Shown here: piece by piece, positions 629-64,000 of the stretch
How the letters are laid out: every line of letters begins with the position of its first letter
Position numbering within the stretch: position 1 is the stretch's first letter
Origin: Bilabrum cf. latius
Lineage: Eukaryota
Length of the DNA stretch: 64,000 bases
Reading direction: 5' to 3'
NCBI GenBank assembly: GCA_965178125.1
Contig: OZ237775.1
Location: forward strand, 434,001-498,000
Notes under the pieces: generated by a model
Told to the model about the DNA's origin: nothing
Seen by the model: the letters and a program-made list of their open reading frames with translations, nothing else
Database searches by the model: none
Position numbers and translations under genes: made by a program

Positions 629-3600
629 TCAGTCCCGTCCGTATTGATCCTCTGGGGCTGCGGAATACACCATGTCGTGCGCACGTTGACCGATCAAACT
701 GCGCCACTTCTCCAGCAGAGACTACAATCGCTGTGCATCTGTTTCTGGAGCAGCGCCCTATGAACTTGCAGCTGACGACTGCCGGCCAAGTGGTGCTCCC
801 GGTTTGCCTCCGTCCGAGTCGCTGGACTCCTGGGGTGCCTTCCGAGGCGTGTCACCGTCGTCATTGGATTTGCCACCACCTAGTCCCTTGCCCGATTCTG
901 CCCCTGACCCCTCGCTCGTAGTTGCAACAGTTTCTGCCTTACCAGCCGATGATTCTTTGCCGCCTTCAGCACCGGTGCTAGCTGTTCTGAAGCGCACCGG
1001 AAGCAAGTCAGTGCCGTACTCCGCTGGAGGCTGGAACAAGATGCCACCGCCTTTCCAGGCTTCCCTGCCCTGCAATCCCTCGCTTTCCTCTTCCACCTTT
1101 CTGAGTCCCTCCAGATCGATGAAAGAGACCGCAGAGCCTTCCAAAATCCCAACACGGCTGGCAATCACGTCAGCTGGCTTATCCATGAAACTAGGAAGGG
1201 GCAATTCACACGGAAGGAGACCCAGCTGCTGAGCCACGTCGGCCAAAGTGCCGCCTCTGATGGGGATGCACATCCTCCTCGACTTGACCACACGTGCCAT
1301 GTGATGAGTGCCAGAGCGCACTGCAGGGTTGGTCCGTCTGCTGCTGCCAGGGTTGGCGGCGCTGGGTTGCCGACCCGTCTCCTGTATTGGAGGGGGCATG
1401 CTTTTGGATTCTGCTCCAATCGACCCTGCGGCAGCACCCGAACCCGCTGCGGTTGCCTTCGCAGGATCATTTGGTTCTCTGGCTGCTGTAGCATCACCAA
1501 TCCGAGAGTCAGTGGCGTCTCCAGGAAAGCCCCCACTCGTTTGTGCGAGATGACCTGCGTCAAGCACCTGCACATGCACTTCCATCATGCCATCGACGGC
1601 TCTGGCCAGTACAGACTATAAACAAAGCTGCCCACCAGCGATTGCAGTCGTTAGGGCATCCTGGAGTTGAACACATGTACCGTCCAATTGCCTGTCCTCG
1701 CATGGCATGATGCACAGCTGCACACGAATCGGAGGCAGCTCGTGCTTCCTGTACTTGCACTCGGCGAAGAAATCACCCACAGCACTGGTGATGATCCTTG
1801 CCCCCTCAGTGATACCCAGCCCGTGCATGCCCGACCAGATGGGGATGCGGAGAACAATTTCCCGGTCGCCACTGCAAGTGGCTTGCAGAGAGTGAATGCG
1901 GCCAAGTTCACCTTCCTGTGTCTCGCAAGCGTTGCTGCTCGTGACTGTTGAAGACTCAGAAGCGATCGCCGCAGGTTCGCTCGGCTCGCTTGGTGTAAAC
2001 GAACTGCTGTGAGGTTGTTTCATGAACCTCATCAGGCTGCAATGCTGCGAGCGCTGTGTGCTGGAAGAAGTGCCTGATGAAGACGCTGCAGCTGCTTCGT
2101 CTTGCCCAAACAAACTTTTCGTGCTCATCTGCTTCTTCTTGAGCTCTTTATGTTGCTACGTACGCTGGGCCGCGAGTACAGGCGGCCCATTCAAATCGAG
2201 CATAGGTGCTCCGTACGGGTCCACGTCAAACATGTCAGCCGGCTTGATCGATGCATGCTCACCATCCTTGGCCCCAGCTCCACTTGCTGCGCCCCCTGAT
2301 GCTGCCTAGCTATCCTGGAGCTTACTGCAACCGTCGCATACTGACACGATCAGGAAGTGCCTAGTAGCATCAAACAGGGCGATCTTCCTGCTGGCGATGA
2401 CAGACATGCCCCGGCACATGTGCAGGATTTCAGAAAGATCTTGTTTGTTCGCCCCAATACTGCCATCATTGTTTTTGTCGCCTTTCTCTCCAGACGAATC
2501 TACGGGCTGCTCCCTTATACCAGCACGAGCCCCATCGCCTTCCTCGCGAGTATCGGCCGATGGGATCACTGGCCGCATGGCCTGCATGGCCTGCACGAGC
2601 ACCCGCTAGCAAGCGGTATCGGTCGTCTCTCTATTCAACATCACTGCCCTCCAGAACCCGCGATTGACAGTATCCCTTGCATCCTTATCAATTTCAGTTG
2701 GGACTGCATCGTGCCCCGTCTGCTTCATCATCCAGCCCGATAGTACGTATGAGGTGGATGCTGGGTTGCCGGCATCGACACGAGTAGGCAGGATTGCCAC
2801 ATATTCAACAGCATCAGCCGAGGAGCTGCTTGACGAAACCATCTAATCGAACGTCACCTTTTGACATGTGACCCGAAACTTTTGCTCAGTTCCAACGGCC
2901 CCTGCCACAAAAACCTCCCCAAAGCTTCGTTGTTGTACAGCCACAGGCAAATCCCACCCCATTCCAGAGAGATCGCACGCAAACTTTCCCAGTGATTTGT
3001 AGTCGCCCTGCTTCATGACGATCGTGTGCACCCCGTGATGAGTGAGAAGGCGATGGCACCTGCCCACAAACCCGCGCTGTGCCTTCGTCTTGTCCAGCCT
3101 TTGCTATTCAGTGTCATCTTCCCGCGGATCTGGTGGCGCTGTCGTCAGGAAAAAGTGCGGACCAACGTCGCCGACCACCTCGACTGCCTAGTCGAGCCCA
3201 GCCAAGACATCCTGGTCTTCTAACCCAAATCCATAGAACATCAAGCTGTAGTCAGACGACAGCATCTTAAGCATCTGCATCGTCATCATGTCTCCGTGCA
3301 TCAACTCCCTGAAATCCTCGTGGCCCGAAACAAACTCCTCCAATCCCTCGGGGCTGATGTCGCCGTGAAGCTTGACTAGTGCGGGCACGTCAGATTGCGC
3401 CTGCAGGTGCGCCCTCAGTCGCTTGATGTCCTTGCGGAAGATTCGAAGCAGCGAATGCTTGCGCTGGTGCATGTACTGGGCCTTGTGCCTGACGGGGAGC
3501 TTGCACATCTGGGAGTGGACGATACGGCCTTTATTTGAACGATTTGCACAAAGGCTTGTTTCCCAGGTTCGCTCAAATACGTCGTCCCAGTTGGTTGTAA

Positions 3601-13000: not shown

Positions 13001-16000
13001 TGCTGGTGGATTGCCCGATCCGGCGATACCCAACCACGTCGGTGGGCGCGTTGAAAGGGGTGCTGCCCGCCCCCTTGTACGCAAACCTCTGGTTGGGCGC
13101 GCTCCTTTGACCACCCCTCGTGATCACATCAATGCTGAGGCGAAGGAGAACCCGCGAGTCCGTGTCATTGGCCTTGTAGGGCCACGGCTCTGGGACGAAG
13201 CACTCCACGGCAGAGCTGTCCTGCCACACCACGCTGGTGCAAGGCCGCCCGTCGACGTACACGCCCTCCACTTCCGTCTCGTTGAAGCCAAAATTCTCGC
13301 CAAACACCAGGATGGACTCGCCCGGGCCCGCGATGTTGGGCGACACGGCGGCAACGACGGGGTCTGCAAGGACGTCCAAGAGCTCGTTCTCCTGGCTGCG
13401 TTGCCCCTTGGCGACCAGGACGACTTCGGAGTTGTCCCAGCTGCTTGAATTCACTCCGACGCACCGGACCTTGCTGCTTGAGATCCACTAGATGGATTCG
13501 CACGGATTGCCACCGACAGTGACCGCGTCGATATCTTCAGGCCCGGAGCCGAGCTCGCTCCCCTGGACGATGAAATCGCTCTTGATATCCCCCATGAAAG
13601 CGTACGACGGTTCCAAGGTGGACACAATCGGGGCCAAATAGGAGAATACCCCGTTGGGTGGGGACCGCAGCCCACCCCGTGTCAGCACGTCAACGGACAG
13701 GGAGCTACCCGCACCCCGAGGCGCAGTGACGACGAGCGTCGTCGAGTCGACGTAGCCCACCTGTGGCACTACCTTGCCCCCGAACACGACGAAGATCACG
13801 TCGTCCGGCTTCTCGCCGAAATTGGTACCCTTAATGGTCACGATGCTGCCGCCCTGCACCGACCCCAGAGCTGGCGTGACGAATGTCACGGTAGGGGTGC
13901 CAATTGCGACCACCGCGCTGGAGGTGGTGCCAATGGAGCTCTGGCCTGCGACGGTCACCCGCATGTTGTACTGGCCGCCGGACAGCTCGGTCGCGTTGAG
14001 CGCTTCCACGTTGCACGTGATCCTGCCTGATGATCGCAAGGCTGCGTTCGTGCAAGCCAGGCTGACCTTCCCGCCGCTCTGGCGGTTGGCCACCAGCCCG
14101 ACGGCCTCAAGCTTGCTCACATTCGTGCCAAAACTCGCGCCTTCGATCGTGAATTCCAGCTGCGCCTCGCCGAGGAACACAGTGGGCGGGTCAACGTAAG
14201 CGATGCTTGGTCTAGAGTACCTCCACAACCGCCGGGACTCGCTGTCGTACCCGCCGCGCGCGTGCACCTATACGCTTAGCTGCGAACCGACCCCGGGCGG
14301 CGTCAGCACAGTGATGGTGTTGCGGTCAATGACTCGGAATGACGGGCAAGGAACCCCGCCGAAAGACACCCCAGTAACGTACGGCCCATCCTGGTCTACT
14401 GCTGCGAAGAAATCGCCGCGCACTGTGACGTTCGTGCCCCCAGCGGCAGCGCCCAAGTCAGGCGAGAGGGAGTCCACCCGTGGACTGGCAAAACCCTCGA
14501 AGGCAGACTCGAAATACAGCGGGGCCGAGTACGGAGTCGACACCTCCACCCCTTCGGCAGGCCAGTCACCTACGCCCGATAGTGCGCACCTCAGCTCGCC
14601 GCTAGACACCACTGCCAGATCCGTGCAGGCGTACCCGCCCACGCGCACGGCTGTGATGTCGTCAAGGCTTTGAGCGAGGTGGCTACCGAGCACGGACACG
14701 GTGACGTCGCCCACACCAGGGACAAGAAAGGCAGGATCCACGCGGGACACTGCTGGCATCGCGTAGCTGAATACTCCACCGGTGGATAGGAGACCGTCTC
14801 TCCTCTCCACCACGAGCTTCAGCGACTGCCCGGCCCCAGGAGGCACCCCCACCTCGAGCAGCTCGTCCGAAATCCAGCGGAGGGACGCCTCCCTGGTATC
14901 CCCAAACCACACGCTACTAACATCCCCGGGCCGCACCCCGAAGGCACGGCCTGTCACGTTGATCTTGTACCCTCCGTCGACGGCGTTCACGCCTCCGGGG
15001 GCGTCGCTGGTTACCGACGTAACTTGCGGCTGGGCGATGGGACGCAGAAGGCCAGCGCTCCTGGATCGCTGACCTGCCACAGACACGACGATCGCGTTAG
15101 AGAACCACGGTGCGCTGGCCCCGACGCATCGGGCTTGCGTGGGCGAGATCCAGGACGCCGAAGTGCAGCGCTTCCCCCCGATTTCGATCCAGTCGACGTC
15201 GCCGTCCTGCATGCCCAGCTCTGTCCCAGTCACAGTGAAGTTGTAGTCCACGCTGCCCGAGAGTACTTGCGCGGGCTCGATTGCCCTGACTGAAGGCTGG
15301 CTGTACGAGAACAGGGCGTTCGCGGGCGTGCGCATGCCCCCGCGAGTGGTGACCTCAACGGAAAGCAGGCCACCAGCACCCGGCGGTGCGACGCACTCGA
15401 TGGTCAGCGGCTGTCCCGGAGTATCAGCTGCAGCGACGGTGAAGTTGAGGCATGGGTTTCCGCCGATGGAGACTTCGAGCACGTCACCTGGCTGCTCCCC
15501 GCAATCAGCGCACACAACCGTCTACACATCTCCGCCGAGGACTGCACCTATACCCGGATTCACAAGGGAGATGCGCGGCTGTCCGTAGATGCGGAGCACT
15601 TCGACCACGCTTGTCTGGCCGCCAGCCAGCTCAAGCTCCACTGCATCGGAACTGAAAGCAGTCAGATTAGCACCTGGCACCGTGCACACGGCCGATTCCG
15701 ACGAAATCCACGTCGGCTATACGCAGGGCTGCCCGCCCACAGTGATCGTTTCAAGATCCTCAGTCTGCTGTCCGAACGAAGAACCGCGCAGCCGCACCCG
15801 CAGGTCAGCTGCCTCCACGCCCGCGGCAGGCTGAAACACGTACGCCGGGTCTGTGCTCGAGATGACCGGGTCCTCATAGGAGAAGAGGGTATTCGGCTCG
15901 CTCGCAAGACCCAAGGCGTTCACCACCTGCACGTTCAGACCCGCCCCAGACCCCTCAGGCGTGATACAGAAAAGCCTATCTTGAAGCACCTGGCTGGCGT

Positions 16001-41952: not shown

Positions 41953-42292
41953 GGCTAGGCGTGTATTGCCTTGTTTTTGTGCAACGCTTTGCTTTTCGCG
42001 TGTGATCAGACTGCAGTGCAATGCAAAGTGCGACCACTGGGGTGGTCGCACAACAGCTAGGTGACATTTTCGGCTCGTTCAAGATTCTATCGATCCTGAA
42101 GTTGCTTTCATTGGGTTCATATTCACAACAGCACATATCTTGACAAGTTGGGGCGCAGTCTGCATCACCGGTTGAGGTTCCAGCTAATAGGCGACGGTTC
42201 CAAGCAGACATTTTGTCCAGGCCGCGCCTAGCCGGCAGTCCGCGCATTTGCTTTCCGCAGCTCCATCAGCCTAGATTTCTCACTAAGATTGC

Positions 42293-48200: not shown

Positions 48201-51200
48201 CCCAAGCCGCTGCGAGGCACGGTTTCTCCAAGGAACGCTCGGGTGCTTCCTTCCCTCCGGTGTAGCTGCGACCGGTCCAGTCCACCGGTGGAGCCACGCC
48301 AGCACTGCCACCCACCCGATCTCAGCATGCCCCCATGCTGGGTCTGTTAGGCAGGGGCGGTCGCTCGGACAGCTCGCGCGATTTCAACAGCAGCTCGTCC
48401 GGTGGCAGCTCTCAGCGGAGTTCGAGACGGGCGAGACCACTCAAAGCAAAGAAGCCGCCCAAGGACCTGCGAGCCGCCGATGCGATCATCTTCCACCAGG
48501 TGACGCCCTCTCTCGGCTGCTGCGAGTGGCTTCGGCTGTGGGCGCTGAGGGTGGTGGCGAGCGGTCCGTTCGCGGCAACGATCGTTCTGTTGATCCTAGC
48601 GAACGCTGCTGTGCTGGCGCTGGAGCAGTATCCCATCGTGCCGCGGCGCCAATCGATCGCAGAGATGATCAATTTCGGCCTGTCTGCTGTGTTTGCAGTA
48701 GAAATGACGCTCAAGATGTACGCGCTTGGATTCGAGGCGTATTTCAGAGATCGCTTCAACGTCTTCGACGCCGTGGTGGTGCTCGTGTCTGCCATAGAAA
48801 TCGCGATCAGCCCTCCTGATTTTCTAGTGGGGGGCGACGATGACTCGAGCGGCGGGGCCGCGCTGTCCGGTCTGCGGACATTTAGGATTGTGCGCGTGCT
48901 GAAGCTAGCCCGCTCGCTCGTGTCTCTGCGGGTGCTGCTGGAGACGATCTTGAGGTCTCTCCAAGACGTGGCTAACTTTGCGCTGCTGCTTTTCCTGTTC
49001 ATATACATCTTCTCTCTGCTGGGGCAGTTCCTGTTCGCGAACCGCTTCCGGTTCGATCCGCGGTCCGGGGACGTGGTCAGGCTCGGAACGGCTGGATTTG
49101 ACGATGCTGAGGTGCCCCGCGAGAACTTTGACAACTTTCTGTCCGCCTTTGTCTCAATCTTCTCGATTCTGATGGTTGAGGCATGGCCCTCGATTTTGTT
49201 CTCCGGTTGGAGGGCCTCCCGTGCCGAGACAGATGCCTTTGAGCTGATCGCCGTGCTGTACTTTGTGGTTGTCGTGGTGGTCGGCAACCTGGTGTTGCTC
49301 TCTCTCTTTCTGGCCATCCTGCTGTCCAACTTCGAGGGGCTGGACGAGGAGATGGCGAACGCGGCGGAGCGGCTCCGTCGGAAGGCGCTGGGCACCAGCA
49401 AGAAGAAGAAGAAAAAGAAAAAAGGGCCTAAGGGCGGCGATTCAGTGGGCGGCAGTGGAGGCTCCTCGGCAGGTGGCGTGCCAATTTACTCAGAGGATGA
49501 CAGCAACAGCGGTTCAGACGACACAGATGGGTCTGTCGCGATGCCGTTTGATCCAGCTCTGCTGAGTTCCACAGAAAGCGAAGAGGAGAGCGAAGAAGAT
49601 CAGTTCCTGGAAGACCTGCAGAACGCCCCGTAGAGCTCACGGAACGGGCTATCTGCTTCGAATGCCTCTAGCCGGTGGTTCTTCTAGTCCAGGAGAGACC
49701 AACTCCTTGGTGCCCAACGGTCCGGTGCAAGCATAGGCTCGCAGCGATCGACTCCTCTGGGCATGCCGGGCCCGCCTGTCGTAGCTAAATCGCTTGGAAT
49801 CGATGGGTAGTCTGTAGCCAGTGGCGGCAGATCCATCGCCAGCAGCGGAATCGGTACACGAGGCCGCCGCACTTCCCTTATTGACATGCGAGGGGCTACT
49901 GGCACGGGCTTAATACGCAGCCAGTCACCAGCGGTGGGATCCCGAGCCAGCCCAGCCTTCCTGCGCAAGAAGCGGTCCATGCGGAGCAACGCCTCCTTCC
50001 GGTCGAATTCCTCAAAGGGCAGCAGCAGTCAGGTGGCCGAAGCCATGGCAGCGCTGAAGAAGGGCAAGTCCGGCAAGAACCTGCTGCGGAAGCGCATGTC
50101 CCACACCAACGCGCAGATGAACCAGCTACTCGCGAAGAGATCCTTCCGCTTCAAGAAATCGCACGCGGCTCAGAAAGAGGAGCAGCGCAAACAAATGATG
50201 GCGCTAGATGCTTTCGGATCGCCGAACGAGTCGAGGCAGGGCAAAGCCCCTCCCTCGCTCACCAACTCGCCGCCGGACCAAAAGAGGCGCCTGCGAGGCC
50301 CGAGCCCCTCCGCGAGCGACGGACACAAGAGCGTCAAGGACGGGCGCGGCTCCAGACAGGGGGCGATGGACACGGAAGGGTCCATCCAGCCCTTCGATAT
50401 GGAGGGCTTCGTGTCTCGGCCAGTGGTAGTGCGAGCTGACTCAGGTCTCAAGCCCTAGATGCTGGTTAGCAGCGGCATAGGCGCAAGCGCGGGGCAGCAT
50501 TCCACCGACCAGCCAGCCAACGACGCGGGAACGGTGAATTCCTCAGAACTCGGCAAGTCTGCGGGGGACGATGGTTCGAGCAGCGGCGCTGGCTCCCGAG
50601 CCACAGCACCACCTGTCAGTGGTGCCGCAACATCCAAGAGCAAGCGGGCCTCCCGAGTGGCAGGGTTGTTCCTCAAGGCACTCGGCAACGCCGCCATGAA
50701 GAATTCAGCCGAGTCGGGCACGCCTGCTCCGGACAACGAGACGCCATCTTCAGCAGCGAGCGGTGCCCTATCCAGTTTCGCCCGTCGCAAGAAGCGCATG
50801 AGCTCCCTCAAAGACGCCGCCAATGCCATCCGAATGGCGCAGCGTGCCACTAGACGGTCGGATGCCAAGCGCGACAGAGGAGCCTCAAAGAGCAACATAG
50901 CATCGATCGTTTCTACTATCTAGGCGAGACAGGAGGGTAAGAAACGGACGTGCCAGTACTACACGGGCAAGTTCCTCCGACGGGTGTGGAGGAACGTGAG
51001 AGGCACCGTGATTGGTATGCGAGACCAGAACGCTGTGTCGGAATTCATGTCTCGCCTAAACAGCATCAAGTAGCGATTGGACGATAAAGCCAAGGCAGTG
51101 TCGCCCACCAAGCAGGCCACCAAGCAGGCCACCACTACCTCCTTCCGAACAGACGGCAGCGGGACCGGCACAGCAGTGGCTGTAGGGACTGGAGCCGGCC

Positions 51201-54200
51201 GGCGGGCGCGACCCTCACCAGCCGGTGCGATCGAAGGCCCAACCAACACATCGTCCAACCTAGGCATGTCGGCTCTGACGTACGGCAGTGCGGGCTCAGC
51301 AGCAGCCAAGCAGGGCGCAGGCGCTGGGGCAGCCTCCTAGGATGCGCCGAAGAGCATCTTACGGAAGGGTGGCAAGCGCGCCTCTACGCACGCAGACAGC
51401 CCGTCCCAGACACGAGACACTCGGCTCAACGCCTCGGGATTGATGGCCTCGCCTGATCACTCCCAGAATGGAGGTGCTGGGCTGCATGGCGTGCCTGCAA
51501 GCGCGATGAAGCCCACGAGTGCATCAAAGGTGGACGCAATGTTCAGCCCCGAGGCGGCAAAATCGGCTGCACGTGATGCTTCTGACCCATACAGCAACCT
51601 GAGGGCATAGACGGCTAGAAAGCGCGCGTCAGATGGTGGGGTGGCTGCGGGCAGACGGCGGCGATCAAGCGCGGTGCGACACGACTTGCTGTCTGCTGCA
51701 CACGTTGGCGATGCCGATTCTGGCTCGACGGGCGGTGCTGCCGCCGCTGCTGACGGCTTGGAAAAAGTCGGGGCTGGCTCCTCCAGGCAGCGCCGTGCAT
51801 CTGCAGTCGCTCGGTTGTCCAGCACCGGGGGTCGACAGAGGCGGGGCTCGATCGCCCGCCGCTCCCGCAGACCCAGTCAGGTGGAGCAGCTGATTGGAAG
51901 GCTGTTCGCGGGCGGGGCTGCTGCAGATAACGGTGCGGCTGATGATGATGCGGATGCGCTTGGTACAGAGCAAGAGGCTTGGCGCGGCATTCAAAAGCGA
52001 ACGATGGAGAAGAGGAGGAAGCAGAAGCAGAGAGAGAGGCAAGCAGAACGGAGACGAGTGAACGAGGTCACAATGGACCCAGAGGTTGAGCGCAGGCTGA
52101 AAACCATGGAGCTGGCGCTGAACGCGCACAAAGAGCACACCCGCATGACCTGGCTGGGCCGCGATCGGGCAGAGCAAGCAAGGTCCCGGCAGATGCGCCG
52201 ATCGCTTGGCGGACCGACCGACCAGTCAGTGCCGGGCCAAAGACTTGGCAACGTAGATGACGAGCACAGCACGAACAGCCAGCTGGCAATGAGGCTGAAC
52301 ACCGGCGGCTTCGGGTCGTCCGGCCAGGTATCCGCTGGCGTTGGTGCCAGGGGCGGTCGCGATTCCCGAGGCAAGGTACGGGGGCAGCGCAGACCGACTA
52401 AGGAACGCAGGTAGTCACTTAACGACCAGGTGCTTCTGATGGACGCCATGCCCTCCAAGAGACCCATCCCGGCTCTCGGGCTGCTGGCTCCCAAAGACAA
52501 CCAGCTGCCCTCCGTCCGAACGCCGCTGGGCAGCGCCGGGGCCCGTGTTGGACGAGGCAGAGAGGACTTGCACCGCCACCCGAAGGGTTCTGTCACCACT
52601 CGAGCCGCCAACGCAAAGGGCGGCATCAAGGGTTCTCTGTTCGGGTTTGATTCGGATGTGGTCGACGAGGTGATTGGGATGGATGATCTGCACGCTAGTA
52701 GTCGACACAGCGATGCCAGCAAGGGCAAGAGCTCCAAGTCCGGTGGGGGCCGTCGCTCCGGGTCTGGGTCTCGGGAGCTCTCGGGCACGCAACACGAGTC
52801 AGGTTCGAAGGGCAGTTTATCTTAGGCAGGAAGCGTGGTACCAGACTCCGGCTCGGTGCAAGAAGGGAAGATGCCATCGTCCCACCTAGAGGGGGCAGCT
52901 CTCGATGCGTGGCAGGATGTGAGGGAGGGCGAGGCACGCCGCCAGAGACGCAGCTCCAGAGGATCAGCAGAGCGATCCCGCAGGAGCTCAAAGGGCAGCC
53001 AGAGGTCTTTTGCCAGCAAGCACAGCGCCAAGCTGCCCACGCTCGAGGAGGCAATGCAGTCCTTCCCGTACAGGTCTGCAGCCGGCCGCATCACGCGGGC
53101 GCCATCACAGAGCTCATCGATCTTCGGCAAAGTGTCCGGCCCGCATACCGACATCGGTGTCGCGCCCGCCCGCGGGAGACAGGTTAGCGCTCCCCCCGCT
53201 CAGCGAACGAACCAAGGGGGTGATGCAGGGGATCATGACAGGCGTCCGTCAGGTGCTGGCACACGAGGCACACAGGGCACACGAGGCACACAGGGCACAC
53301 GAGGGTCGCAGTCCAGGCGAAGGAGCCGCAACAGCTCCAGCCTGGACGGAACAAAGGATTCGGAGCTGAGAGCAACTGCACAGGCTGCGGCCGTGGCTGT
53401 AGCCGATGCGCAGGCGAAGAAGCTTCTACGAGAGGCATCCGAGGCCGGCGTGAGAGTCAGGCGCCACAGCTGTCCCAATGCGCTAGACCGCGGCCTAGAG
53501 CGGTTCGGTCGCGACGAGATGCACAGGAAGGGGTACGTTCTCACGGAAGTCCCGCCCCCACTCAGTGCAAAGGTATCCGAAGTGGCTGGTGCCGAAACCG
53601 CCTCGCAGCTTGCTCCCGGCCACAGGAGGCGCAAGCCATCCGCGTTCAGCAGTGCTAGCAGGGGTGCGCTAATGATGGAGCGGCCGGGGGAGCCTGGGGC
53701 AGGCATATCGTCTCTGGACTCGCGCAAACTGGCAGGCGCTGCAGCCGGTGGTGCTGCGACAGGCGTACTGCAGTCAATCGGCGAGGGTGAAATCCTGCCA
53801 GCTGGGACGAGTGTCGCTGAGCTTGAGGCCAGCTCGGCTGGTGCGGTACCGGCAGAGGCAGCCCGTGTCAGCATCGCCGACCTGCGATCGGGCAGAAAGG
53901 ACTAGTGGTCTACCAATCGTGGTATGCACCGCGTGCAGACATTCAATTCCCCTGCAAGGGTGCGCCAGCTGGCACGTCAAGAAGGGCGGGAGGCTCTAGA
54001 GGGCGGTCTACTGGGCCGATACCAGGCGAGCGGTGCTGGACAGCTGGCAGCTCGTCGTACCGGTCAGGCGGCCCCCCGTCGGTCGAAAGAGGGCAGGGGG
54101 ATGCGAAGGGTGCCAAGCGCACTGCCAGGGGGGCTGCGCATGGGGAAAACGTCGTTTAGTGCCGGTTTGGGCGCCGCCCGGGATGGGGTGCAATCTACGC

Positions 54201-57200
54201 CACGCTCGGGCGTTGGCTCAGGCAAGCTGCGGCCGGCAGAGGTCTCTGTGCTTAAGGCGTACGGTGGCATCGATGCTTCACCCTCTACCTCAAAGACGCC
54301 GCTGCGATGGGGCTGGAAGAAGGCACAGATGAGGCAGAGCAAGATCAAGCAGCACAAGGCCAAGCAGATGTCACACAGGCACCTGGACACGGGCGGTGCG
54401 GCCGGCGCTGCCAGTCGTGGTCGGCAGCTGAGTGCCCTGGAGCAAGCCAACCTCAAGCGAACGAGCACAGGAGTGCCGGGGACCTTTATGGCGGGAAGCC
54501 GCACCCGTCCCAGCGCAGGGGGAGGCAGGCCTTCGCCCAAGGAACCAGTGCCCAGGGCCTTGCAGATCGGTGCCGCCGAGGGGATGGCCCATGCCAAGCG
54601 AGACCGTGCATTCGGAGCCAACAATGCCGTGGCTAAACAAGCTGCAGGTACTGTCCTTGCGAAAGATTCGTTCATCGAAGGCCTCAAGCGTGTCGAGTCG
54701 CCAGCCACGAGCGATGCCGCGCCTGCCTCTGCCGATGGCAGCGGCAGTGTGACTGGACTTGTGGGCGTGGACACGCTCGGGCGACCTACTGGAAGGGCAG
54801 TGGAGGGCCGCAGCGTTGCCTCCTCGGGTTCCGGTAGGCCCCCTGCCGGGCCCCATGGGCATCGCCGTGCCACCCACGAAGGGGGTGCAGCGCAGCACCA
54901 CGAGCATGTTGACGAACCCGGGGCATCGGCTGCCCCTGCTCAAGCAGCAGTTCACAAGCATGCCCCGCTCCAAAGAAACCTATCGCAGAAGCAAATGAAT
55001 TTGCTGCACGGGATTCGGGGTGCTCGTGCACCTATAATGTCGGAGCATGACGCAGAGGAGCGGATGCGCCACATGGAGTCCGACAACCTGCGCCGTCAGA
55101 TGCACGGGATCGAGCATGGGATGGACGCGATCCTGGGCGACGAGGAGGAGAACCAAGAAGGTACGGGCTCCGGTGGGGAGGGCAGCTCGGACGTTGAGTC
55201 GGACGACGACCACTTTGACCAGGTGCTGGATCTCTTTGATCTGGAGCACCCTGACTTGTGCAGGAGGACGAGGCAGAGGGCCGTGACGTACCTGGCGCTG
55301 TGCTGCGGATGCGTGACCCAAAATGAGGTGGACCGTATTGGGCAGGAGGGTGAATATGCCGAGGAGGGGGGTGACCAGGACGAGGACAAGCCATCTGCTG
55401 GGGCTGGAGAATCGGGCGGGGGCTACTGCGGCTGCTGCTGTCGGGAAGCACGAGGAGGACCAGGCAGCGGCAGTTCCTCGGTAGCCTCGCCAAATGTGTC
55501 CCCAGCGATGCGAGGGAACAGGGCCACTGCCACCGTAACCCCAATGGCTGCTGTCAAGCAGGGTAGTCTGCACTCTGATCAGCATCAGAAGCAGCAGCAC
55601 TTCACGTTTGCTGGTCCAGCGGCAAGGTCCAGCGTGTCCGGTACACCACCGGCTGCGCTCGTGGCTGCAACGCCCAGGTCACCTGCGCGGTCTCCGATGC
55701 GGTCGCCATTGCGCTCCCCTGCTCGTCGCAACCGAGGCATGCGAAACTCAAAGACTTCGGCAGACTCCGCCGCTGCTGCACTGAAAGAGGCCTTCGGAGA
55801 CAACGGAGGGGCACCACCCTCTCCAACCGCGAGACGCGCCACTGTGCAGGGACATTCTAGGGGGTCCAGCTCTACCGCTCACTCTGTTGATATCGGCGAG
55901 GCTGGATAGGGCAAGGGTAACGAAGACGGTGACGATGAGGAAGACACGGATGCGGGAGAGCTGGATCTGGCAGCCAAGCAGGAGCTTGCAGTGGCCTCTG
56001 TGTGCCCGGGCTTCTTCTCCAACCGGTCGCTCTGCCTCTTTGCCCCCCATGACAGCGTCCGCAGGCAAGCAGTCTGGATCGTGTCCCAGAGCTGGTTCGA
56101 TAACACCATTCTGGTCCTCATCCTGCTTGCCTGCGTGGTGCTGTCTCTCGACTCACCCCTCCTGGATCCGGCCAGTCGGCTGGCCAGCGCCCTAACGGCC
56201 ATCGATCTGGCGCTGACGTTCATCTTCCTCGCCGAACTCATCATCAAGGTGCTCGCAAACGGACTCATGTTTGGCTCCATCGCATACCTGACCTCGGCTT
56301 GGAATTGGCTTGACGCCAGCCTCGTTGCGATCTCGCTCTTTGCCCTGTCTGGCGCAGCTTCGACGAACATCAACAGCCTCCGGTCGCTTCGGGCGCTCAG
56401 GGCACTTCGGCCACTGAGGGTTATCAACAGGAATGAAGGTCTGCGGGTGGTGGTTAATTCTCTATTCCGCGCCATTCCCTCTATTCTCAACGTGCTCGTC
56501 ATCCTCGTGCTGTTCCTGTTCATCTTCTCGACTGTCAGCGTCAGCTTCTTCAAAGGCAGCTTCGACAACTGCACGGGGCCTGTATTTGAGGCCCTTACGG
56601 ATGAGCAGCAGGACCTCGTTGTGAATCCGCGCCCATTCAACGACTTGACGCCTGCAGAACAATCGTGGGCGGCCGACCCCGTCAATCGGCCGTCCTTCCC
56701 CAGCACCAACCCAACGTCCAAAGATGTGTGCCTGTGGCTCGCTGCGGACTGGGAGCCAACGGTGCCGCAAAACTTTGACAACGTCGGCAACGCGATGGCC
56801 ACCCTTTTCGAGCTCATGTCGACGGAAGGGTGGCTCAACATCATGTACGCCGGTGTGGATGCCCGTGGGATCGAGATGCAGCCGGTGCGCGACTACCAGC
56901 CCCTCTGGCAGCTGTACTTTATCGTGTACATGATCCTCGGGTCGCAGCTAGTCATAAACCTGTTCGTCGGTGTGGTCATTGACGCGTTCAGCAGATAGAG
57001 GCAGGAGCAGGGGGAGAACTCGCTGCTGACAGAGTCGCAGAAAGAATGGGTTGCCACGCAGGAAGCCATGCTACAGGTACGACCGAAGCGAGTGCTGCGA
57101 CCCCCGCTGGACCCCACCCGCAAGAGCTTATTTTACCTGGTGCAATCTCAGAACTTCGAGATCTTCATCATCGTGTGCATCATCCTAAACGCGATCGTTA

Positions 57201-58645
57201 TGGCCATGTTCTACTTCGGGCAGACGTCGGCGTACGGCGACGCGCTCGAGGTGCTCAACTACGTGTTTGCTGGCATCTTCACAGTGGAGGCCGTGCTTCG
57301 AATCCTGGGGGTGGGCTTCTTTGAGTACATCACGGATCCGTGGTCCCTCTTCGATTTTCTCATCGTCATAGGCACGGACCTCGGCATCGTGCTGCGGTTC
57401 GTTGTGGGGCTCGATGTGGGTACGATCGCCACCCTGATCCGCACCTTCAGGATTGCCAGGATCGTCCGATTGATTCGATCCGCTCGGTCCCTCAGGGTCC
57501 TCCTCTCCACGCTGATTGCCACACTGCCCTCCCTTGCCAACATCGGTAGTTTGCTGTTCCTGCTGCTGCTCGTGTACGCGATCATGGGCGTGCAGCTGTT
57601 CGCACTGGTCAAGTTCGGGCCCGCGCTGAACGAGAACGCCAATTTCAGGTCGCTGGGCATGGCGCTGCTCACGCTGATCCGGTGTGCCACGGGCGAGGAC
57701 TTCAACGCGATCATGGCAGACCTTCAGGTCACCACGGACTGCGACCCGAACCCTACGTGGGACGACGAAGAGCCAGCGGGCTGCGGCTCTCCCATTACTG
57801 CGTACGTGTACTTCTATTCCGTGGTGCTTCTCATCGCATTCGTGCTGATCAACCTGCTGCTTGCCGCCATCCTGTCAGCCTTCACGGACAGCTCAGCGGA
57901 GGAGGACGCGCGACTGAGCAAGGAGCAGCTGGAGGCGTTCGCGACGGTGTGGGCGGAGTTCGACCAGGACGCCTCGATGTTCATGCCGGTCAGCAGGATC
58001 ATCCCGTTCCTGCGGGCACTGCCCCCGCCCATGGGCTTCGGCAGGGACTACGATGTGTCGGACGATCAGATCAGGAACCTTACGATCCAGATGAGGATAC
58101 CAACCTACGGCGGGACCATGCTGCACTTCAGCGACGTGGCGCGAGCCTGCGCCCGCCGCGTGATTGCGACGGCAGTGCAGGAGCGTGGTGACGAGTGGGA
58201 GGAGCTGCCGGAGGACCACACGGTGGAGAGGAAGTGGCAGGAGCTGAGGCGGTCTTCCATCTCGAGGGTCATGCGAAGCAGGCGAAACGTGCTGGGGCCG
58301 GATGCGATGCTGAGCGATGCAGAGATCGGCGCAGGTGGCGCCGGGTCTGTCGGCAGGAAGCCGTACGGTATCCAGCACATCTACGCAGCGAGGGCGATCT
58401 CCGACACGTTCCGCTGCTGGCGCTTCCGCTGGAAACTCGCATCGGCCATGGCAGAGCTAGAGCAGGTGCTCGAGGAGGAGGGGGGTGACGAGGAGGGCAG
58501 AGGAAATCAGGACGAGGACGGGTATGCTGAGGAAGGGGAGGTGATGCGTGGTGGAGCTGCTGCGACTGGGTACGGGCAGACCCCGCTGGGGATGCACCAG
58601 CGCGGTGATGGGAACCACGTGCCATTCGGGGGTCCTGAGCTGTGA
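42293..58645 (+). CDS. Four-domain voltage-gated calcium channel alpha-1 subunit (EEEE filter), ~5,450 aa, no intron needed
   Basis: Fifteen ORF pieces share one frame, separated only by TAG (24 counted), and end in TGA. There are four S4 helices (e.g. LRTLRLLRPLRSL, LRSLRALRALRPLRVI) and P-loops TLEGW, MVEAW, STEGW, TGEDF. The C-terminus has an EF-hand-like WAEFD...LPPPMGFG and an IQ-like IYAARAISDTFR. The start could be 42293, 42437 or 42452. Confidence 0.9.
53258..53303 (+). repeat. Coding minisatellite, 18-bp unit x~2.5 (GTRGTQ)
   Basis: ggcacacgaggcacacag repeated within the channel II-III linker. Confidence 0.8.
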
Positions 58646-59539: not shown

Positions 59540-60262
59540 TCAGTCGCTGCCCGCCTTGCCTACCGCTAGCGCAAGCACAGCGAGCATCTGCTCGACCTCC
59601 TCTGGTGTGAACCTAGAGAGGGACGGGATCAGGGCAATTGCCTCGTCCACGCTGCCGGGAGCAAGGTTGCTCAGCGCGGAAATCTCAAACGAATGGAGCG
59701 TGACAGTCTGTGCCACGCCGCCATCGGTGGCTTCACGCGCGTACTCCAAACCACTGAGCTATTGTCTCAGCTCGTTCAGGGTATCGTAATCAGCCTTTGC
59801 AGGCGCTCCCTTGAACCGCTTCGCGAACTGTGCCGCGAGCTTCTGGGCACTGCGAAACTAGTCAAGTTGTGGCCATATTTAGAGCCACTGTGCACACCAC
59901 AAGAATGGAAAACAATATGATATTTAAAGCACTTACGGTAGCATGGAGCTTTCGTCTTGCTGTAGCCCTTCAAAGAGCGCGACTGCCTCTGCGTTCGACA
60001 AGAACTCTGCTTTCCCCAAAACTGCGGCGCGCAGAACGGAATATGGCATGAATTGCACAGTCCACTGCAATGTGATAGTACATGATACGATCATCAAAAT
60101 GCAGGCCTCACTCGAACCGAACGCGAGCTCTTCGGCGCTGATGTCCTCTTCCTCATCCTTGGCCGCAGCCGGGTCCCTTGCCACTGCGGCTGGCTCAGGC
60201 GGGCCCGCTGACTCGCCAGCGAAACCTGTATCAGCTCCAAAATCGAACCCGTCGTCGTCCAT
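59540..60262 (-). CDS. RPB4: RNA polymerase II subunit RPB4-like; predicted introns 60022-60111 and 59850-59936
   Basis: EEED...L.FG...AEFLSNAEA and LHSFEISALSNLAPGSVDEAIALIPSLSRF match the RPB4 pattern. GT-AG introns preserve the frame. One TAG (59759) lies in ELRQ*LSG. Ends in TGA. Confidence 0.8.
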
Positions 60263-60388
60263 GCTACGCTGCTGCCGGAATTGTGCTGCAGCCTGCAGCA
60301 GATTCGCGCGAAGTTGCGTGACAATAGGCCAGTGTATTAAAAACAAGACAAAATGGACGGGCTGCAACTGCATAATTGTTTGCTTCCC

Positions 60389-63300
60389 ATGGAAGATGAC
60401 ATGGAAGATAGAATCAACGATATTGTTTACAATGATGAGATGTACCTGCGGTGGAAGCAACATACTCCAATAGTTTACGACACTCTTCTAAACTCCCGGA
60501 TAGAATGGGGCACGCTGTCCCTGGCCATGGGAGACGCTCGGCAGGTAGCAACGACCGTTGCGCTGCGTCGGCACCTGCTGGAAGGTGATCACTCACACCG
60601 AACTAAGGCTGTAAGTAATGCTGTTGGTCGCTTGGGTGCCCGGGAGGCCAAAGACCTGGCGGCTGGTACGTACCGCAGGAGGGTATACTTTGCACCAAGA
60701 ACCGGTGAGTCAAAGCAGCTTGCGCCTCGAGACATGGCATGAATTGTTGAATGATTATTGGGTTTTCAGATGCTTCCCAATTTACCGATCGCAGACGCGG
60801 AGTATAGTGCGGATTCAAATTGCTGGGATTCTGGCGAGCCGTCTCTACTAGTGCAAGGCGAGCTCAGCATCTCCAGGAGACATCGTACCAATCGCCGTGG
60901 GATTTCAAGGTTTTCCGAATCCAGCTCTTCCTCTCGTCTCTCCATTTCTCGAGAGATCGTGCACCCGGGAGAGGTGAACAGGGTTCGGTGAGACGCTCGC
61001 GTTGCACTTCCGATCGGCATACCCTAGAGCGAATCGACCCCTGTCAGCGCGCTACGTTTCTGCGCGACTGCGACGCTTGCGAGATTTGCGCGTCGCCCGT
61101 GCATCCAACCGCCTGCTCCGATCACCCGTTCCTGCCCCGCCCCTCCACCCGCAGCACTTTCGCCTCCGCTGACCACCTGGTGGTCACGCACACGGATTCG
61201 CCCGACCTGTTCGTATGGAACACTGCCAGAGACAGGGCTTAGGGAACATGGAGGGCGCGCGCCGATGGGTCCGGTTCCGCAATGCGCGGCGCCACTCCGA
61301 AGGGTCCCATCCCGTGCGCCGTGCCTGACGTGGTGCTGTCTGGTCACGCCGGAGAGGCGCAGTATGCGCTCGATCTGGCCCACGCTGGCGCCGCGAGGCG
61401 GCGAGCGGAACCAAGACCAGGAGTCGCTGCACCCAGTTCGTCGAGTTCTGAGTCAGCTGCAGGATTTTCAGCGTAGGTCCAGGCTCCGATGCTGCCATCC
61501 GGGATGTCGGCCCTCTCTGCCACCAGCAGCGAGATCGGATCAGGGATCGGATCAAATAGCGAGTCAGCCACCCCCACAGCCGCTGATCTGCCGGCTGCCT
61601 CCCCCACGCGCTGGGGAAGTTCCACAGGCACGGGCGCCGCGCCTCAGATGCGTGTGCTCTCTGGGGACGAGACGGGCCAGGTGTGTCTCTGGGATCTGGA
61701 CGATGCAAGGGGGGCGGCGAGGGACAGACTGGGGCTGGGGCTGGAGCCCGCAGGTGGCATGGGCCATGCGACGGAGGACACATAGCTTGGTGCTGAGGAT
61801 GCATTGCGTGGCGGTGCATTGCAGGGGTCCAATTTCTCGATGGGTTCCGCTGGGGTGTCGGGGCTGCGGCACGCCAAGGGCGGCTAGTCACACATGCGCG
61901 CCTCCGGTGTGACGAGTGTGTCAGCTGCGCCCCGCCTGCCACCTGTATTCTCTGGGCAGGGTCACACCAAGGAGGTCGCCGCTGTGTGCTTCATGCCCGT
62001 ACCTTCCATGGCCATGGGGGAGGGCCATGGCCATGGCGGTGCGCTCTGTGGCGATGGGCCGGGGACGGGGCAGGGGCAGGGGCTGGGACTGGCCAGCATG
62101 GTCAGGGGCCCCGGCTTGGATGGCTGCAGCGATGACCCTGCACTGCAGGGGCTGGGTAAAGACGGGAGTGCGGACGACTCGCTGGCGATGGGGTGGTCAA
62201 AGTGGGAGTCGGACGGGATCCGATGGCGCTGCGACTCTGGCACGGATGGAAATCGAAACGAGGCTGTGGTTTGGGCCCATGGGGCAGAGGCTGCTTTACC
62301 CAAAGGATAGCACGGCATTGCTGGTGGTCTGAAGGGGCCGCAGTCCCCGGTTCCACTCCGCGTAATTGACGGATGGGATGGGGAGGATGCAGGCAGCGCC
62401 ATTGGGTGGAGCACTGTGCAGCACGATGCCTTTCTCGCCCGCGGCTATGGCAATGTGTTTGCCTCCGCGGGACTCGACGATACGCTGCACCTGTGGGATG
62501 CCAGGGCGAGCACTAAGCCGGTTGCAACTGCCGCGGGCGTGCACGGCGGTGAAGCCGTGGCGGTGGCCTGGTCGGCTCTGGACCCTGCCCTTGTAGCGAC
62601 GGGGGGTTCTGACGGCGCCGTGCGGTTGTTCGACGTGCGGTGCATGGGAGCACATGCCGGCGGGAGTGGCAGCGGTGGTGGGAACATTGGTGTGACGAGT
62701 GAGTGGGGCTTGGGTGCGATCCGGATGGCGGGCAAGCAGCCGCTGCTTGCGGAGCTGAGGTACCACTTGTCTGACGCACTCTGCGTGGAGTTTTCGTGCG
62801 CCGCTAGCGGCGTGCTGCTGTCAGCAGGAGCTGATGGCGTCGTGGTGCAATGGGACCTTGCGCAAGGGGATGCAGCGCGAGCTGCTGTGGTCGGTAGGGG
62901 CATGGCAACAGATGGGAATCGCATAGGTGTGGAGGACGAAGATCGGCTCGGGGCGGGCTGTGGCAGCGGTCGCGAAGACGGCACTTTTCCTGTAGGTTCC
63001 GCAGATGTGCAGCCCGGCATTGCACCGTCTGCTGGGGACAGGGAGACCTCCCGGCTGGCGGCAGCCCCGTCTTCATTCTCATCGTCATCGGCTCCAGTAC
63101 CGGCTCCAGCATCGGGGAAGGAAGCAGCAGCACTGCCAGTGTCATCAGCCAGCAGCGACCAAGCTGCAGAGCCGGAGATGGAGCCGCGGTGCCTGCTAGC
63201 TGGGGCTGCTAGGCACGCTGCTGTTCGTATCACGCTAGATGCGTGGCGCCAAGATCTCCCAAAGAAACCGAAGGTATAGGAAGGGGCTGTGGCAGTGCCG

Positions 63301-64000
63301 ACTCCTCCGGGTGGCGATGGGCCCGTCGAGCCAAGCCCTGCAGCCTAGGCTCAGTCTGCAAACCAAGCAGCGATGGATACAGATGGGGATTTGCCACCAA
63401 CCCGTAGCAGCTGGATCGGTGGCGGCACGGGTGTCCGGCTTGGCCGCGCAGCAGCTGGCGGGCCAGCCGAGGGCGTGAAAATCGAAAAGGTACAGAAGGG
63501 TAGCGGTGCAGATGATAGACGTGATGACGAGTGGGCCCACCCGGATCCCTGGCCCGCAAAGCTACCCGCAGAGGCACAGGTGGTGCACAGGGGCCACAGG
63601 TCCACCTCGCTGGTGGATCTGGTGCTGGCGCGAGATTCGGCCGACCCCTGGCTGGTGGCCACCATGTCAGATGACGGCAGCAATCCACGCATTCGGGGCG
63701 GTGCCACGCTGCAGCTGTGGAGGCCCAGTGACCTGGTGACTGGCCCCTCCAGAAGCCGCATCGCAGAGCTCGAGGCAAAGCTTGGGAGGGCTCGTGAGCG
63801 AGAAGCGGGGCGCTCTGGAAGCAACGGCCGCGGTGACCATGCAGCCCCGTCTGAATAGATGTAGGAGCCTAGCGCTGAGCAGTCGAAGGGTGTGGGCATG
63901 AGCAAGAGCACGGGGGGCAGCAAGGCCTCGCTGTGCTCCCTGTCTGGCAGCCAGACCAATCCGGCGTCGGCCAAGACAGGTAGGGCTGGTGTCGAATCCT
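60389..64000 (+). CDS. MSI4/FVE-like (RBBP4 family) histone-binding WD40 protein with long low-complexity inserts; introns 60705-60794 and 60988-61154; 3' partial
   Basis: YLRWKQHTPIVYD...EW.TLS, IVHPGEVNRVR, VVTHTDSPDLFVW, PDVVLSGH, WD repeats and HRGH...DPW...TMSDD. Nine in-frame TAGs; no TAA or TGA before the window edge. Confidence 0.82.

What the first reader, a model, noticed from the sequence alone, without database searches (positions are those of the whole stretch)
629..64000. Nuclear genetic code variant: UAG reassigned to a sense codon while UAA and UGA remain stops
Seen: eight of the nine genes, on both strands and including housekeeping RPB4 and MSI4-like, carry in-frame TAG. I count about 90 over roughly 19,000 codons, with no in-frame TAA or TGA, no frameshifts and intact catalytic motifs. 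Predicted termini are TGA (629, 10005, 38083, 40325, 58645, 59540) or TAA (35902, 41281). Known: in nuclear codes UAA and UAG are almost always reassigned together (many ciliates, hexamitid diplomonads, some ulvophytes). Uncoupled UAG-only codes are rare, e.g. the fornicate Iotanema spirale, a rhizarian and some phyllopharyngean ciliates. Inference: this GC-rich, intron-poor genome does not look like a ciliate and may be an independent origin. A heterotrophic stramenopile is my unverified guess.
Basis: partly seen in the sequence, partly recalled or inferred. Interest (0 to 1): 0.97.

Follow-up and report, generated by a model that had tools for sequence, protein, structure and literature searches.

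The report
UAG read as glutamine, nuclear genes
This GC-rich eukaryote, probably a stramenopile, reads the stop codon UAG as an amino acid (most likely glutamine) while UAA and UGA still end its genes, a rare split of the two "UAR" stop codons.

Summary
Eight of nine genes, on both strands, carry 85 in-frame TAG codons. Reading TAG through merges standard-code ORFs of at most 965 codons into frames of 5452, 4154, 3825 and 2496 codons. Reading TAA or TGA through gives no frame longer than 965 or 928 codons. All eight gene ends seen are TGA (6) or TAA (2).

Contigs of two runs from two studies carry four spliced GT..AG introns, so they hold cDNA. They keep the TAGs: 30 of 30 TAGs in the laid 20 kb lie under one run's pieces with no differences. 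Splicing, editing and assembly error are therefore unlikely.

Close relatives or paralogs (76-95% identical fragments) have Gln opposite two of the three TAG sites they cover. One fragment stops exactly at another window TAG. A simple likelihood over 26 sites puts Gln 17 ln units ahead of Lys.

The calcium/sodium channel gene branches among stramenopile channels.

The code equals NCBI table 15. It is already known from Iotanema, Protocruzia and some phyllopharyngean ciliates. My five literature searches found no stramenopile case. The tRNA(CUA) and eRF1 could not be examined.

The parts
629..8098 (-). 2489-codon ORF with a kinase-like domain and a SIR2_2 domain. It has 19 in-frame TAGs and ends in TGA at 629-631. 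The true start is probably downstream of 8098.
   Evidence: (PF13289 E 2.5e-14; Pkinase E 4e-5, below Pfam's cut-off). Fragments 95% and 76% identical have Gln opposite the TAG at 3188-3190 (residue 1637). The 95% fragment ends exactly before the TAG at 3104-3106.
10005..21458 (-). 3817-codon IPT/TIG-repeat membrane protein with 11 in-frame TAGs, ending in TGA.
   Evidence: (2415 homologs). Fragments 87% (P0106) and 91% (P0158) identical have Gln opposite residue 1979 and Asp opposite residue 1914. Fragments 52% and 41% identical have Gln opposite residue 1519.
23615..35902 (+). 4095-codon paralog of the previous gene, arranged head to head with it. It has 16 in-frame TAGs and ends in TAA.
   Evidence: 50% amino-acid identity; one TAG is shared at the same column. 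Two TAGs fall in the repeat column that is Gln in 14 of 23 other repeat units.
36290..38083 (+). Secreted-looking protein of about 530-597 codons with no Pfam family. It has 1 in-frame TAG (37721) and ends in TGA.
38643..40325 (+). Purple acid phosphatase-like gene with 4 in-frame TAGs. The last one (40320) lies directly before the terminal TGA.
   Evidence: PDB 3zk4, E 2.5e-26; the metal-site blocks GDLSYA, GNHD and GHVHNY align.
41281..42051 (-). 256-codon ORF for a small membrane protein. It is the only gene without TAG and ends in TAA.
   Evidence: No homology or RNA evidence was sought for this ORF.
42293..58645 (+). 5450-codon, intron-less, four-domain voltage-gated Ca/Na channel with very long disordered linkers. 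It has 24 in-frame TAGs and ends in TGA.
   Evidence: (E 3e-156 to Cav3.2; one alignment to Nav1.7 runs across the TAG at 56996). The cDNA contigs of run X5 cover 44001-58727 with 0 differences and no joint with more than 21 letters on its shorter side.
59540..60262 (-). RPB4 (RNA polymerase II subunit 4) with three exons and introns at 59850-59936 and 60022-60111. It has 1 in-frame TAG (59759-59761) and ends in TGA at 59540-59542.
   Evidence: spliced joints in runs X5 and X7; PDB Rpb4, E 4e-6.
60353..64000 (+). RbAp48/MSI-like WD40 gene that runs off the window. Its introns lie at 60704-60793 and 60987-61153. Exon 3 has 9 in-frame TAGs.
   Evidence: (GT..AG joints in X5).

Best explanation
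The organism's nuclear genes use a code in which UAG is an ordinary sense codon, most probably for glutamine (the code of NCBI table 15). UAA and UGA remain the terminators.

Shown here:
- UAG stands in frame about once per 215 codons in 8 of 9 genes.
- It stays in the mature, spliced mRNA.
- Homology continues across it.
- Close relatives carry Gln codons at the same sites.

Inferred, not shown:
- UAG is decoded by a dedicated tRNA with anticodon CUA, derived from tRNA-Gln(CUG) by one anticodon change. Such a tRNA pairs with UAG but not UAA, which explains the uncoupling of the two codons.
- eRF1 has lost or weakened UAG recognition.
- Decoding must be efficient, because one mRNA needs 24 UAGs read to give a full channel.
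- The organism is a GC-rich (about 60%), intron-poor eukaryote whose channel gene places it with stramenopiles.
For: 1. TAG-specific merging of ORFs. The longest frame is 965 codons under the standard code and 5452 with TAG as sense. Reading TAA or TGA through gives no frame longer than 965 or 928 codons. In-frame TAG occurs 84 times against 119 and 108 in the other phases. TGA and TAA are absent in frame but occur 354/343 and 49/61 times out of frame.

2. All 8 gene ends are TGA (6) or TAA (2), and 0 of 8 are TAG.

3. Homology spans the TAGs: the Nav1.7 and Cav3.2 alignments, the SIR2_2 domain, and the IPT repeats.

4. RNA evidence. Contigs of runs X5 and X7 (two studies) carry canonical spliced introns, so they hold cDNA. 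No other letter was reported anywhere in 44001-64000 in any of the 4 runs laid. 30 of 30 TAGs in that stretch lie under X5 pieces with 0 differences.

5. Amino-acid identity:
- Fragments 95% and 76% identical have Gln opposite g1 residue 1637.
- Fragments 87% (P0106) and 91% (P0158) identical have Gln opposite g2 residue 1979, and fragments 52% and 41% identical have Gln opposite residue 1519.
- Two TAGs lie in a repeat column that is Gln in 14 of 23 units.
- Nav1.7 has Gln opposite the channel TAG.
- In an identity-plus-BLOSUM62 model over 26 sites, Gln leads Lys by 17.1, Arg by 19.5 and Glu by 20.0 ln units.

6. Relatives share the trait. A 95%-identical fragment ends exactly before the window's TAG at residue 1665, and relatives' genes appear only as short ORF fragments on contigs of 2.3-7.3 kb.
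Against: - With substitution frequencies taken from the two window paralogs alone, Gln (9.2) barely beats Arg (8.1) over 24 sites.
- The fragments closest to g2 (87% and 91% identical) have Asp, not Gln, opposite residue 1914.
- Three relatives' fragments end before a window Arg and one before a Lys.
- The channel TAG column is Ile/Met/Leu in 72 of 120 homologs and Gln in 19. Another TAG pair sits in a Val/Ile/Leu repeat column.
- Only 8 gene ends were seen, so occasional use of UAG as a stop cannot be excluded. One gene has TAG directly before its TGA.
- No tRNA gene lies in the window, no Rfam family matched, and no genome is held. The tRNA and eRF1 parts of the mechanism are therefore untested.
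- Logan contigs drop rare variants, so partial editing is not excluded.
Confidence: 0.82

Rival explanations
1. UAG is a sense codon, but for another amino acid (Lys, Arg, Glu or Leu) instead of Gln.
For: Partners opposite TAG in the paralog alignment include Arg 4, Lys 4 and Thr 4 beside Gln 5. The empirical paralog likelihood gives Arg 8.1 against Gln 9.2. Hydrophobic columns occur at the channel TAG and at one IPT TAG pair. UAG=Leu and UAG=Ser have precedents (passages of PMC5304391 and of PMC11687900).
Against: The three sites covered by fragments at least 75% identical give Gln, Gln and Asp. At 87-95% identity a Gln opposite an Arg, Lys or Leu codon would need a replacement at each site. 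The 26-site model puts every other residue at least 17 ln units behind Gln. Leu is not among the 8 best residues in either likelihood. From general knowledge, not tested here: arginyl-tRNA synthetase needs C35, which a CUA anticodon lacks.
Confidence: 0.08
2. The code is ambiguous: UAG is translated inside genes but also terminates some genes, depending on context, as stop codons do in Condylostoma, Parduczia or Blastocrithidia (UAA).
For: Only 8 gene ends are visible. The phosphatase gene has TAG immediately before TGA, which could be a TAG stop backed up by TGA.
Against: 0 of 8 ends need TAG. 85 internal TAGs are read through, including 24 in one mRNA. The base after sense TAGs shows no bias (G 21, A 21, T 18, C 15 over 75 sites).
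Confidence: 0.08
3. It is an artefact or decay: an assembly error, pseudogenes, or TAGs removed from the mRNA by splicing or editing.
For: None found. The tool marks run X5 as 'probably DNA'.
Against: - The sequence is identical in contigs of runs from four studies, with no other letters in 20 kb.
- Only one of the three stop codons occurs in frame, and there are no frameshifts over frames of up to 5452 codons.
- X5 and X7 contigs skip four canonical introns yet run colinear through the TAGs. 30 of 30 TAGs are covered in X5, and listed X7 pieces cover at least 5.
Confidence: 0.02

Closest known systems
NCBI translation table 15 type code (UAG=Gln; UAA and UGA stop), as reported for the fornicate Iotanema spirale, the ciliate Protocruzia tuzeti and two phyllopharyngean ciliate lineages
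   Same: It has the same three features: UAG as sense, Gln as its most likely meaning, and UAA and UGA kept as stops. The literature comes from passages of PMC5304391 and PMC11687900.
   Different: The host lineage differs. This is a GC-rich (about 60%), intron-poor genome whose channel gene groups with stramenopiles, not with a ciliate or a metamonad. The tRNA(CUA) reported or proposed for those lineages could not be looked for here.
Rhizarian exLh (UAG=Leu; UAA and UGA stop)
   Same: It is an uncoupled UAG-only reassignment in a non-ciliate protist. Its terminators are only UAA (56 cases) and UGA (15 cases), per passages of PMC5304391.
   Different: In exLh, UAG sits at hyperconserved Leu positions (82 of 86). 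Here Leu is not among the 8 best residues, and close relatives show Gln. In this window TGA is the commoner terminator (6 of 8).
UAR=Gln codes (NCBI table 6: many ciliates, hexamitid diplomonads, some ulvophytes, Streblomastix, Amoeboaphelidium)
   Same: A stop codon is reassigned to glutamine.
   Different: UAA is not a sense codon here. There are 0 in-frame TAA in 18,211 codons, two genes end in TAA, and reading TAA as sense does not lengthen any ORF beyond 965 codons.
Scotinosphaera (green alga, UAG=Ser; UAA stop)
   Same: It is an uncoupled UAG reassignment in an algal lineage (passage of PMC11687900).
   Different: Ser scores 26 ln units below Gln, and the channel phylogeny points to stramenopiles, not green algae.

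Membership tests
UAG=Gln, UAA/UGA=stop nuclear code (NCBI table 15 type) | UAG occurs in frame at many sites of genuine, expressed protein-coding genes | tested here: met
   85 TAGs in 8 of 9 genes. Homology runs across them. They are kept in spliced cDNA contigs.
UAG=Gln, UAA/UGA=stop nuclear code (NCBI table 15 type) | UAG positions correspond to glutamine in homologs | tested here: met
   Gln is found in the 95%, 76%, 87% and 91% identical fragments at 2 of the 3 sites they cover, and in the 52% and 41% fragments at a further site. In the 26-site likelihood Gln leads by at least 17 ln units. Caveat: the paralog-only empirical model separates Gln from Arg by only 1.1 units.
UAG=Gln, UAA/UGA=stop nuclear code (NCBI table 15 type) | UAA and UGA are absent in frame and are used as terminators | tested here: met
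   Frames of up to 5452 codons lack both. The gene ends are TGA 6 and TAA 2.
UAG=Gln, UAA/UGA=stop nuclear code (NCBI table 15 type) | UAG is never (or hardly ever) used as a terminator genome-wide | tested here: inconclusive
   0 of 8 ends are TAG, but 8 is too few. No genome is held.
UAG=Gln, UAA/UGA=stop nuclear code (NCBI table 15 type) | A cognate tRNA-Gln with anticodon CUA | not testable with these tools
   No tRNA lies in the window, Rfam found nothing, and no genome is held.
UAG=Gln, UAA/UGA=stop nuclear code (NCBI table 15 type) | eRF1 with altered stop-codon recognition motifs | not testable with these tools
   The eRF1 gene is not in the window, and no genome is held.
UAR=Gln code (NCBI table 6) | UAA is also in frame as a sense codon | tested here: not met
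   There are 0 in-frame TAA. TAA ends two genes. A TAA-sense reading gives no longer ORFs.
Codes with no dedicated stop (Condylostoma, Parduczia, Blastocrithidia, Amoebophrya types) | UGA and/or UAA are also translated inside genes | tested here: not met
   There are 0 in-frame TGA or TAA in frames thousands of codons long, against about 350 and 55 in each other phase.
Stramenopiles (host lineage) | Genes branch within stramenopile sequences | tested here: inconclusive
   This rests on one gene. For the channel C-terminal part, the best named hits are Phytophthora (42-43%), Choristocarpus (40%), Laminaria and Aureococcus. In a 47-row LG+G4 tree the window lies inside a 35-row clade (SH-aLRT 98) that holds all the named stramenopiles, apart from the animal, Euplotes and Balamuthia rows. 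Its nearest neighbours are unnamed. There is no 18S or multigene test.

The most novel reading that the evidence does not exclude
This is the first non-standard nuclear genetic code in stramenopiles. It would be an independent, unreported UAG-to-Gln reassignment (UAA and UGA kept as stops) in a GC-rich lineage, and it is shared by a small clade. The sign of a shared clade is that relatives 52-95% identical show the same broken-ORF signature, with a stop at one identical site.
Probability: 0.55. Interest if true: 0.85.

Novelty: new member of a known kind. Interest (0 to 1): 0.8.

Why it matters
Nuclear codes in which UAG and UAA have different meanings are rare. The passages I read name a rhizarian, Iotanema, Scotinosphaera, Protocruzia, an oligohymenophorean ciliate and some phyllopharyngean ciliates. 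Each new case tests the idea that a tRNA with a CUA anticodon can capture UAG without dragging UAA along.

A case in a GC-rich, stramenopile-affiliated genome would add an independent origin outside ciliates and metamonads. It would also be in a genome where UAG is not expected to be rare.

The practical consequence is immediate. Standard-code gene calling shatters this organism's genes: the 5450-codon channel becomes pieces of at most 662 codons. Relatives appear in protein databases only as short fragments. Annotations and phylogenomic data sets for this lineage will be wrong unless table 15 is used.

Tried and rejected
- Whole genome: none is held, so there was no genome-wide codon inference and no search for tRNA(CUA) or eRF1.
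- tRNA and RNA families in the window: 0 tRNAs and 0 Rfam families.
- The search for homologous proteins with the IPT piece and 'shorter' lengths gave only 2 hits, because the 8000-candidate limit was saturated.
- Names for the window's nearest channel relatives: none are on record. The top IPT homologs are a mix of metagenome proteins, Fabomonas and Cafeteria, so they are useless for placement.
- The protein-atlas search gave no result, so no lead came from it.
- Leu hypothesis: it was raised by hydrophobic columns and rejected by the paralog partners and the close relatives.
- Profile columns from 150 distant IPT homologs mostly show Thr, Ser or Val. I judged them uninformative, because the TAG sites lie at variable surface positions.
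- The PDB alignments of RPB4 and the phosphatase did not place their TAGs in conserved columns.
- Partner codons opposite TAG in the paralog DNA alignment were not decisive.
- The look-up of sequencing runs listed no holder that is on record as RNA. Runs X5 and X7 were recognised as cDNA only through their spliced contigs.
- Earlier findings of this scan: none in this genome or its look-alikes. The one note on another genome concerns UGA, not UAG, and has no bearing here.
- Literature searches found no paper reporting a stramenopile nuclear code change. The library lacks many subscription journals, and supplements are closed, so this is not proof of absence.
Full report
**What is there**

The window is about 60% G+C, has no N, no tRNA gene and no Rfam family. 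No whole genome is held for it.

Under the standard code the longest stop-to-stop frame is 965 codons. If TAG alone is read through, frames of 5452, 4154, 3825, 2496 and 1083 codons appear on both strands. Reading TAA through changes nothing (longest 965), and reading TGA through gives no giant frame (longest 928). The effect is therefore specific to TAG.

Across 18,211 codons of these frames, the counts by codon phase are as follows:

| Codon | Phase 1 (in frame) | Phase 2 | Phase 3 |
|---|---|---|---|
| TGA | 0 | 354 | 343 |
| TAA | 0 | 49 | 61 |
| TAG | 84 | 119 | 108 |

The zero for TAA and TGA follows from how the frames were bounded. The point is that such frames exist at all, when the other phases meet a TAA or TGA about every 45 codons.

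**The genes**

- 629-8098 (-): a 2489-codon protein with a SIR2_2 domain and a weak kinase match.
- 10005-21458 (-) and 23615-35902 (+): two head-to-head giant IPT/TIG-repeat membrane proteins, 50% identical, with patches of 92-98% nucleotide identity.
- 36290-38083 (+): a secreted-looking protein without a Pfam family.
- 38643-40325 (+): a purple acid phosphatase.
- 41281-42051 (-): a small membrane-protein ORF.
- 42293-58645 (+): a 5450-codon four-domain voltage-gated cation channel (E 3e-156 to Cav3.2).
- 59540 to about 60262 (-): RPB4.
- From about 60353 (+): an RbAp48/MSI-like WD40 gene that runs off the window.

In-frame TAGs number 19, 11, 16, 1, 4, 0, 24, 1 and 9 in that order. That makes 85 in 8 of 9 genes. 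The eight visible ends are TGA six times and TAA twice.

**Is it real, and is it in the mRNA?**

The stretch 54001-64000 is held by runs of several studies. I laid four runs from four studies on 44001-64000. No other letter, insertion or deletion was reported anywhere.

Run X1 holds the whole stretch in one contig and may be the source.

Contigs of X5 and X7 skip 59850-59936 and 60022-60111 (CT..AC on the + strand, which is GT..AG for the minus-strand RPB4). X5 also skips 60704-60793 and 60987-61153 (GT..AG). Splicing restores the RPB4 and RbAp48-like reading frames. These two runs therefore hold cDNA, although the tool guesses that X5 is 'probably DNA'.

The listed X5 pieces stop at 58727, restart at 58813, stop at 60241 and restart at 60392, which are the gaps between genes. 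Two X5 contigs cover the channel gene from the start of the laid stretch to 82 bases past its TGA. Across that span there are no differences and no joint with more than 21 letters on its shorter side.

All 30 TAGs that lie in 44001-64000 are under X5 pieces with 0 differences. Listed X7 pieces cover at least five of them.

The TAGs are therefore not spliced out and are not edited in the bulk of the transcripts, and they are not an assembly error. Contigs cannot exclude rare variants.

**Which amino acid?**

The window's two IPT paralogs give 24 sites where TAG faces a residue: Gln 5, Arg 4, Lys 4, Thr 4, Asp 2, Phe 2 and others. One further site is TAG in both. Using substitution frequencies counted from the same alignment, Gln scores 9.2, Arg 8.1, Lys 3.3 and Glu 1.4. 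Leu is not among the best eight. That alone does not separate Gln from Arg.

Internal repeat columns and 150 distant homologs were mostly uninformative. There were two exceptions. Two TAGs fall in a repeat column that is Gln in 14 of 23 units. One TAG pair falls in a Val/Ile/Leu column.

The decisive data are short ORF fragments from close relatives or paralogs in the protein collections:

- P0306 (95% identical) and P0304 (76%) both read LAGLDQA where the window has LAGLD-TAG-A.
- P0158 (91%) and P0106 (87%) read Gln opposite g2 residue 1979. That is the site in the hydrophobic column. They read Asp opposite residue 1914.
- P0128 (52%) and P0017 (41%) read Gln opposite residue 1519.
- Other sites show Lys, Arg or Tyr, Thr or Ile, and Arg.

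A simple model was applied to 26 sites, with the probability of identity set to the pair's identity and otherwise to BLOSUM62-weighted replacement. It puts Gln ahead of Lys by 17.1, Arg by 19.5 and Glu by 20.0 ln units. Without the three closest sites Gln still leads by 6.7. The model is crude, and the sites within one protein family are not fully independent.

At the channel TAG, Nav1.7 has Gln. Among 120 homologs the column is Ile 34, Met 27, Gln 19, Leu 11, Arg 2 and Lys 1.

I take Gln as the meaning, with roughly 85-90% confidence given that UAG is a sense codon.

**Relatives share the trait**

P0306 ends exactly before the window's TAG at residue 1665. Other fragments end before window Gln at two sites, before Arg at three and before Lys at one.

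Pairs of fragments carry the same 'longest contig' length (P0305 and P0306, 2352 nt; P0031 and P0128, 6774 nt; P0017 and P0130, 7279 nt). This suggests single genes broken into several ORFs. That they lie on one contig is my inference. The contigs could not be fetched, and which stop codon ends them is unknown.

**Who is it?**

The best named homologs of the channel's C-terminal 733 residues are all stramenopiles: Phytophthora 42-43%, Choristocarpus 40%, then Laminaria and Aureococcus. Euplotes follows at 36% and animals at about 30%.

In a 47-row LG+G4 tree the window lies inside a 35-row clade (SH-aLRT 98) that holds every named stramenopile and excludes the animal, Euplotes and Balamuthia rows. 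Its nearest neighbours (SH-aLRT 95-99) are unnamed. The best named IPT homolog is from Cafeteria at 34%, but that family is too widespread to place anything.

This is one gene tree, midpoint-rooted, so I count it as a supported lead and not a placement.

**Mechanism**

Shown: UAG is translated, efficiently enough for an mRNA with 24 of them. UAA and UGA terminate.

Inferred from what is established for other lineages (passages of PMC11687900, and PMC5304391):
- A tRNA with anticodon CUA, one change away from tRNA-Gln(CUG), reads UAG but not UAA. This explains why the two codons are uncoupled.
- eRF1 has presumably lost UAG recognition.

Neither could be tested here.

**Comparison and novelty**

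The code equals NCBI table 15. UAG-only reassignment to Gln is reported for Iotanema spirale, Protocruzia tuzeti and two phyllopharyngean lineages. Reassignment to Leu is reported for the rhizarian exLh and some ciliates, and to Ser for Scotinosphaera (passages).

The table 6 type (UAR=Gln) is excluded by the absence of in-frame TAA. The no-dedicated-stop codes are excluded by the absence of in-frame TAA and TGA.

Five full-text searches turned up no stramenopile nuclear code change. For those papers I saw listings and abstract starts only, apart from the two papers read in passages. I therefore file the finding as a new member of a known kind. It is probably an independent origin, and probably the first in stramenopiles.

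**Open points**

- Whether UAG ever terminates. Only eight gene ends were seen, and TAG sits directly before TGA in the phosphatase gene.
- The tRNA and eRF1.
- The organism's identity.
- The extent of the clade that shares the code.

Noticed in passing
window 10005-21458 (-) and 23615-35902 (+): Two head-to-head giant IPT/TIG paralogs are only about 50% identical in protein. Yet they share patches of 92-98% nucleotide identity (for example 19409-20205 with 24802-25598, 797 nt at 98.2%). This looks like gene conversion between the pair.
   Followed up: partly
window 42293-58645 (+): This is a single-exon gene of 16.4 kb for a four-domain voltage-gated Ca/Na channel of 5450 residues, two to three times the usual length. 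The excess lies in very long low-complexity linkers between the domains. cDNA contigs cover the laid part of it (from 44001) colinearly.
   Followed up: partly
window 40320-40325: The purple acid phosphatase gene ends ...TAG TGA. Under the new code this is one extra Gln before the stop. It could also be a relic of a former TAG terminator backed up by TGA.
   Followed up: no
window 58813-59539 (-): The RPB4 cDNA contig runs about 727 nt past the TGA stop at the same depth. This is a long 3' UTR for a short gene. It faces the end of the channel transcript across a gap of about 85 nt.
   Followed up: no
window 46643-46648 and 63856-63864: TAG codons also occur doubled (TAG TAG in the channel linker) and as TAG-ATG-TAG in the WD40 gene tail, as expected for an ordinary sense codon.
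   Followed up: no
window 44001-64000, runs X1, X5, X6, X7: The same 20 kb is found without a single difference in runs filed under four different coded organism labels from four studies. Either one strain goes under several names, or the organism travels with other cultures.
   Followed up: no
window 629-8098 (-): This 2489-residue protein joins a divergent kinase-like domain to a SIR2_2 domain, a family often discussed in defence systems. It has the highest TAG density among the long genes (19 TAGs, nine of them within residues 509-852).
   Followed up: no
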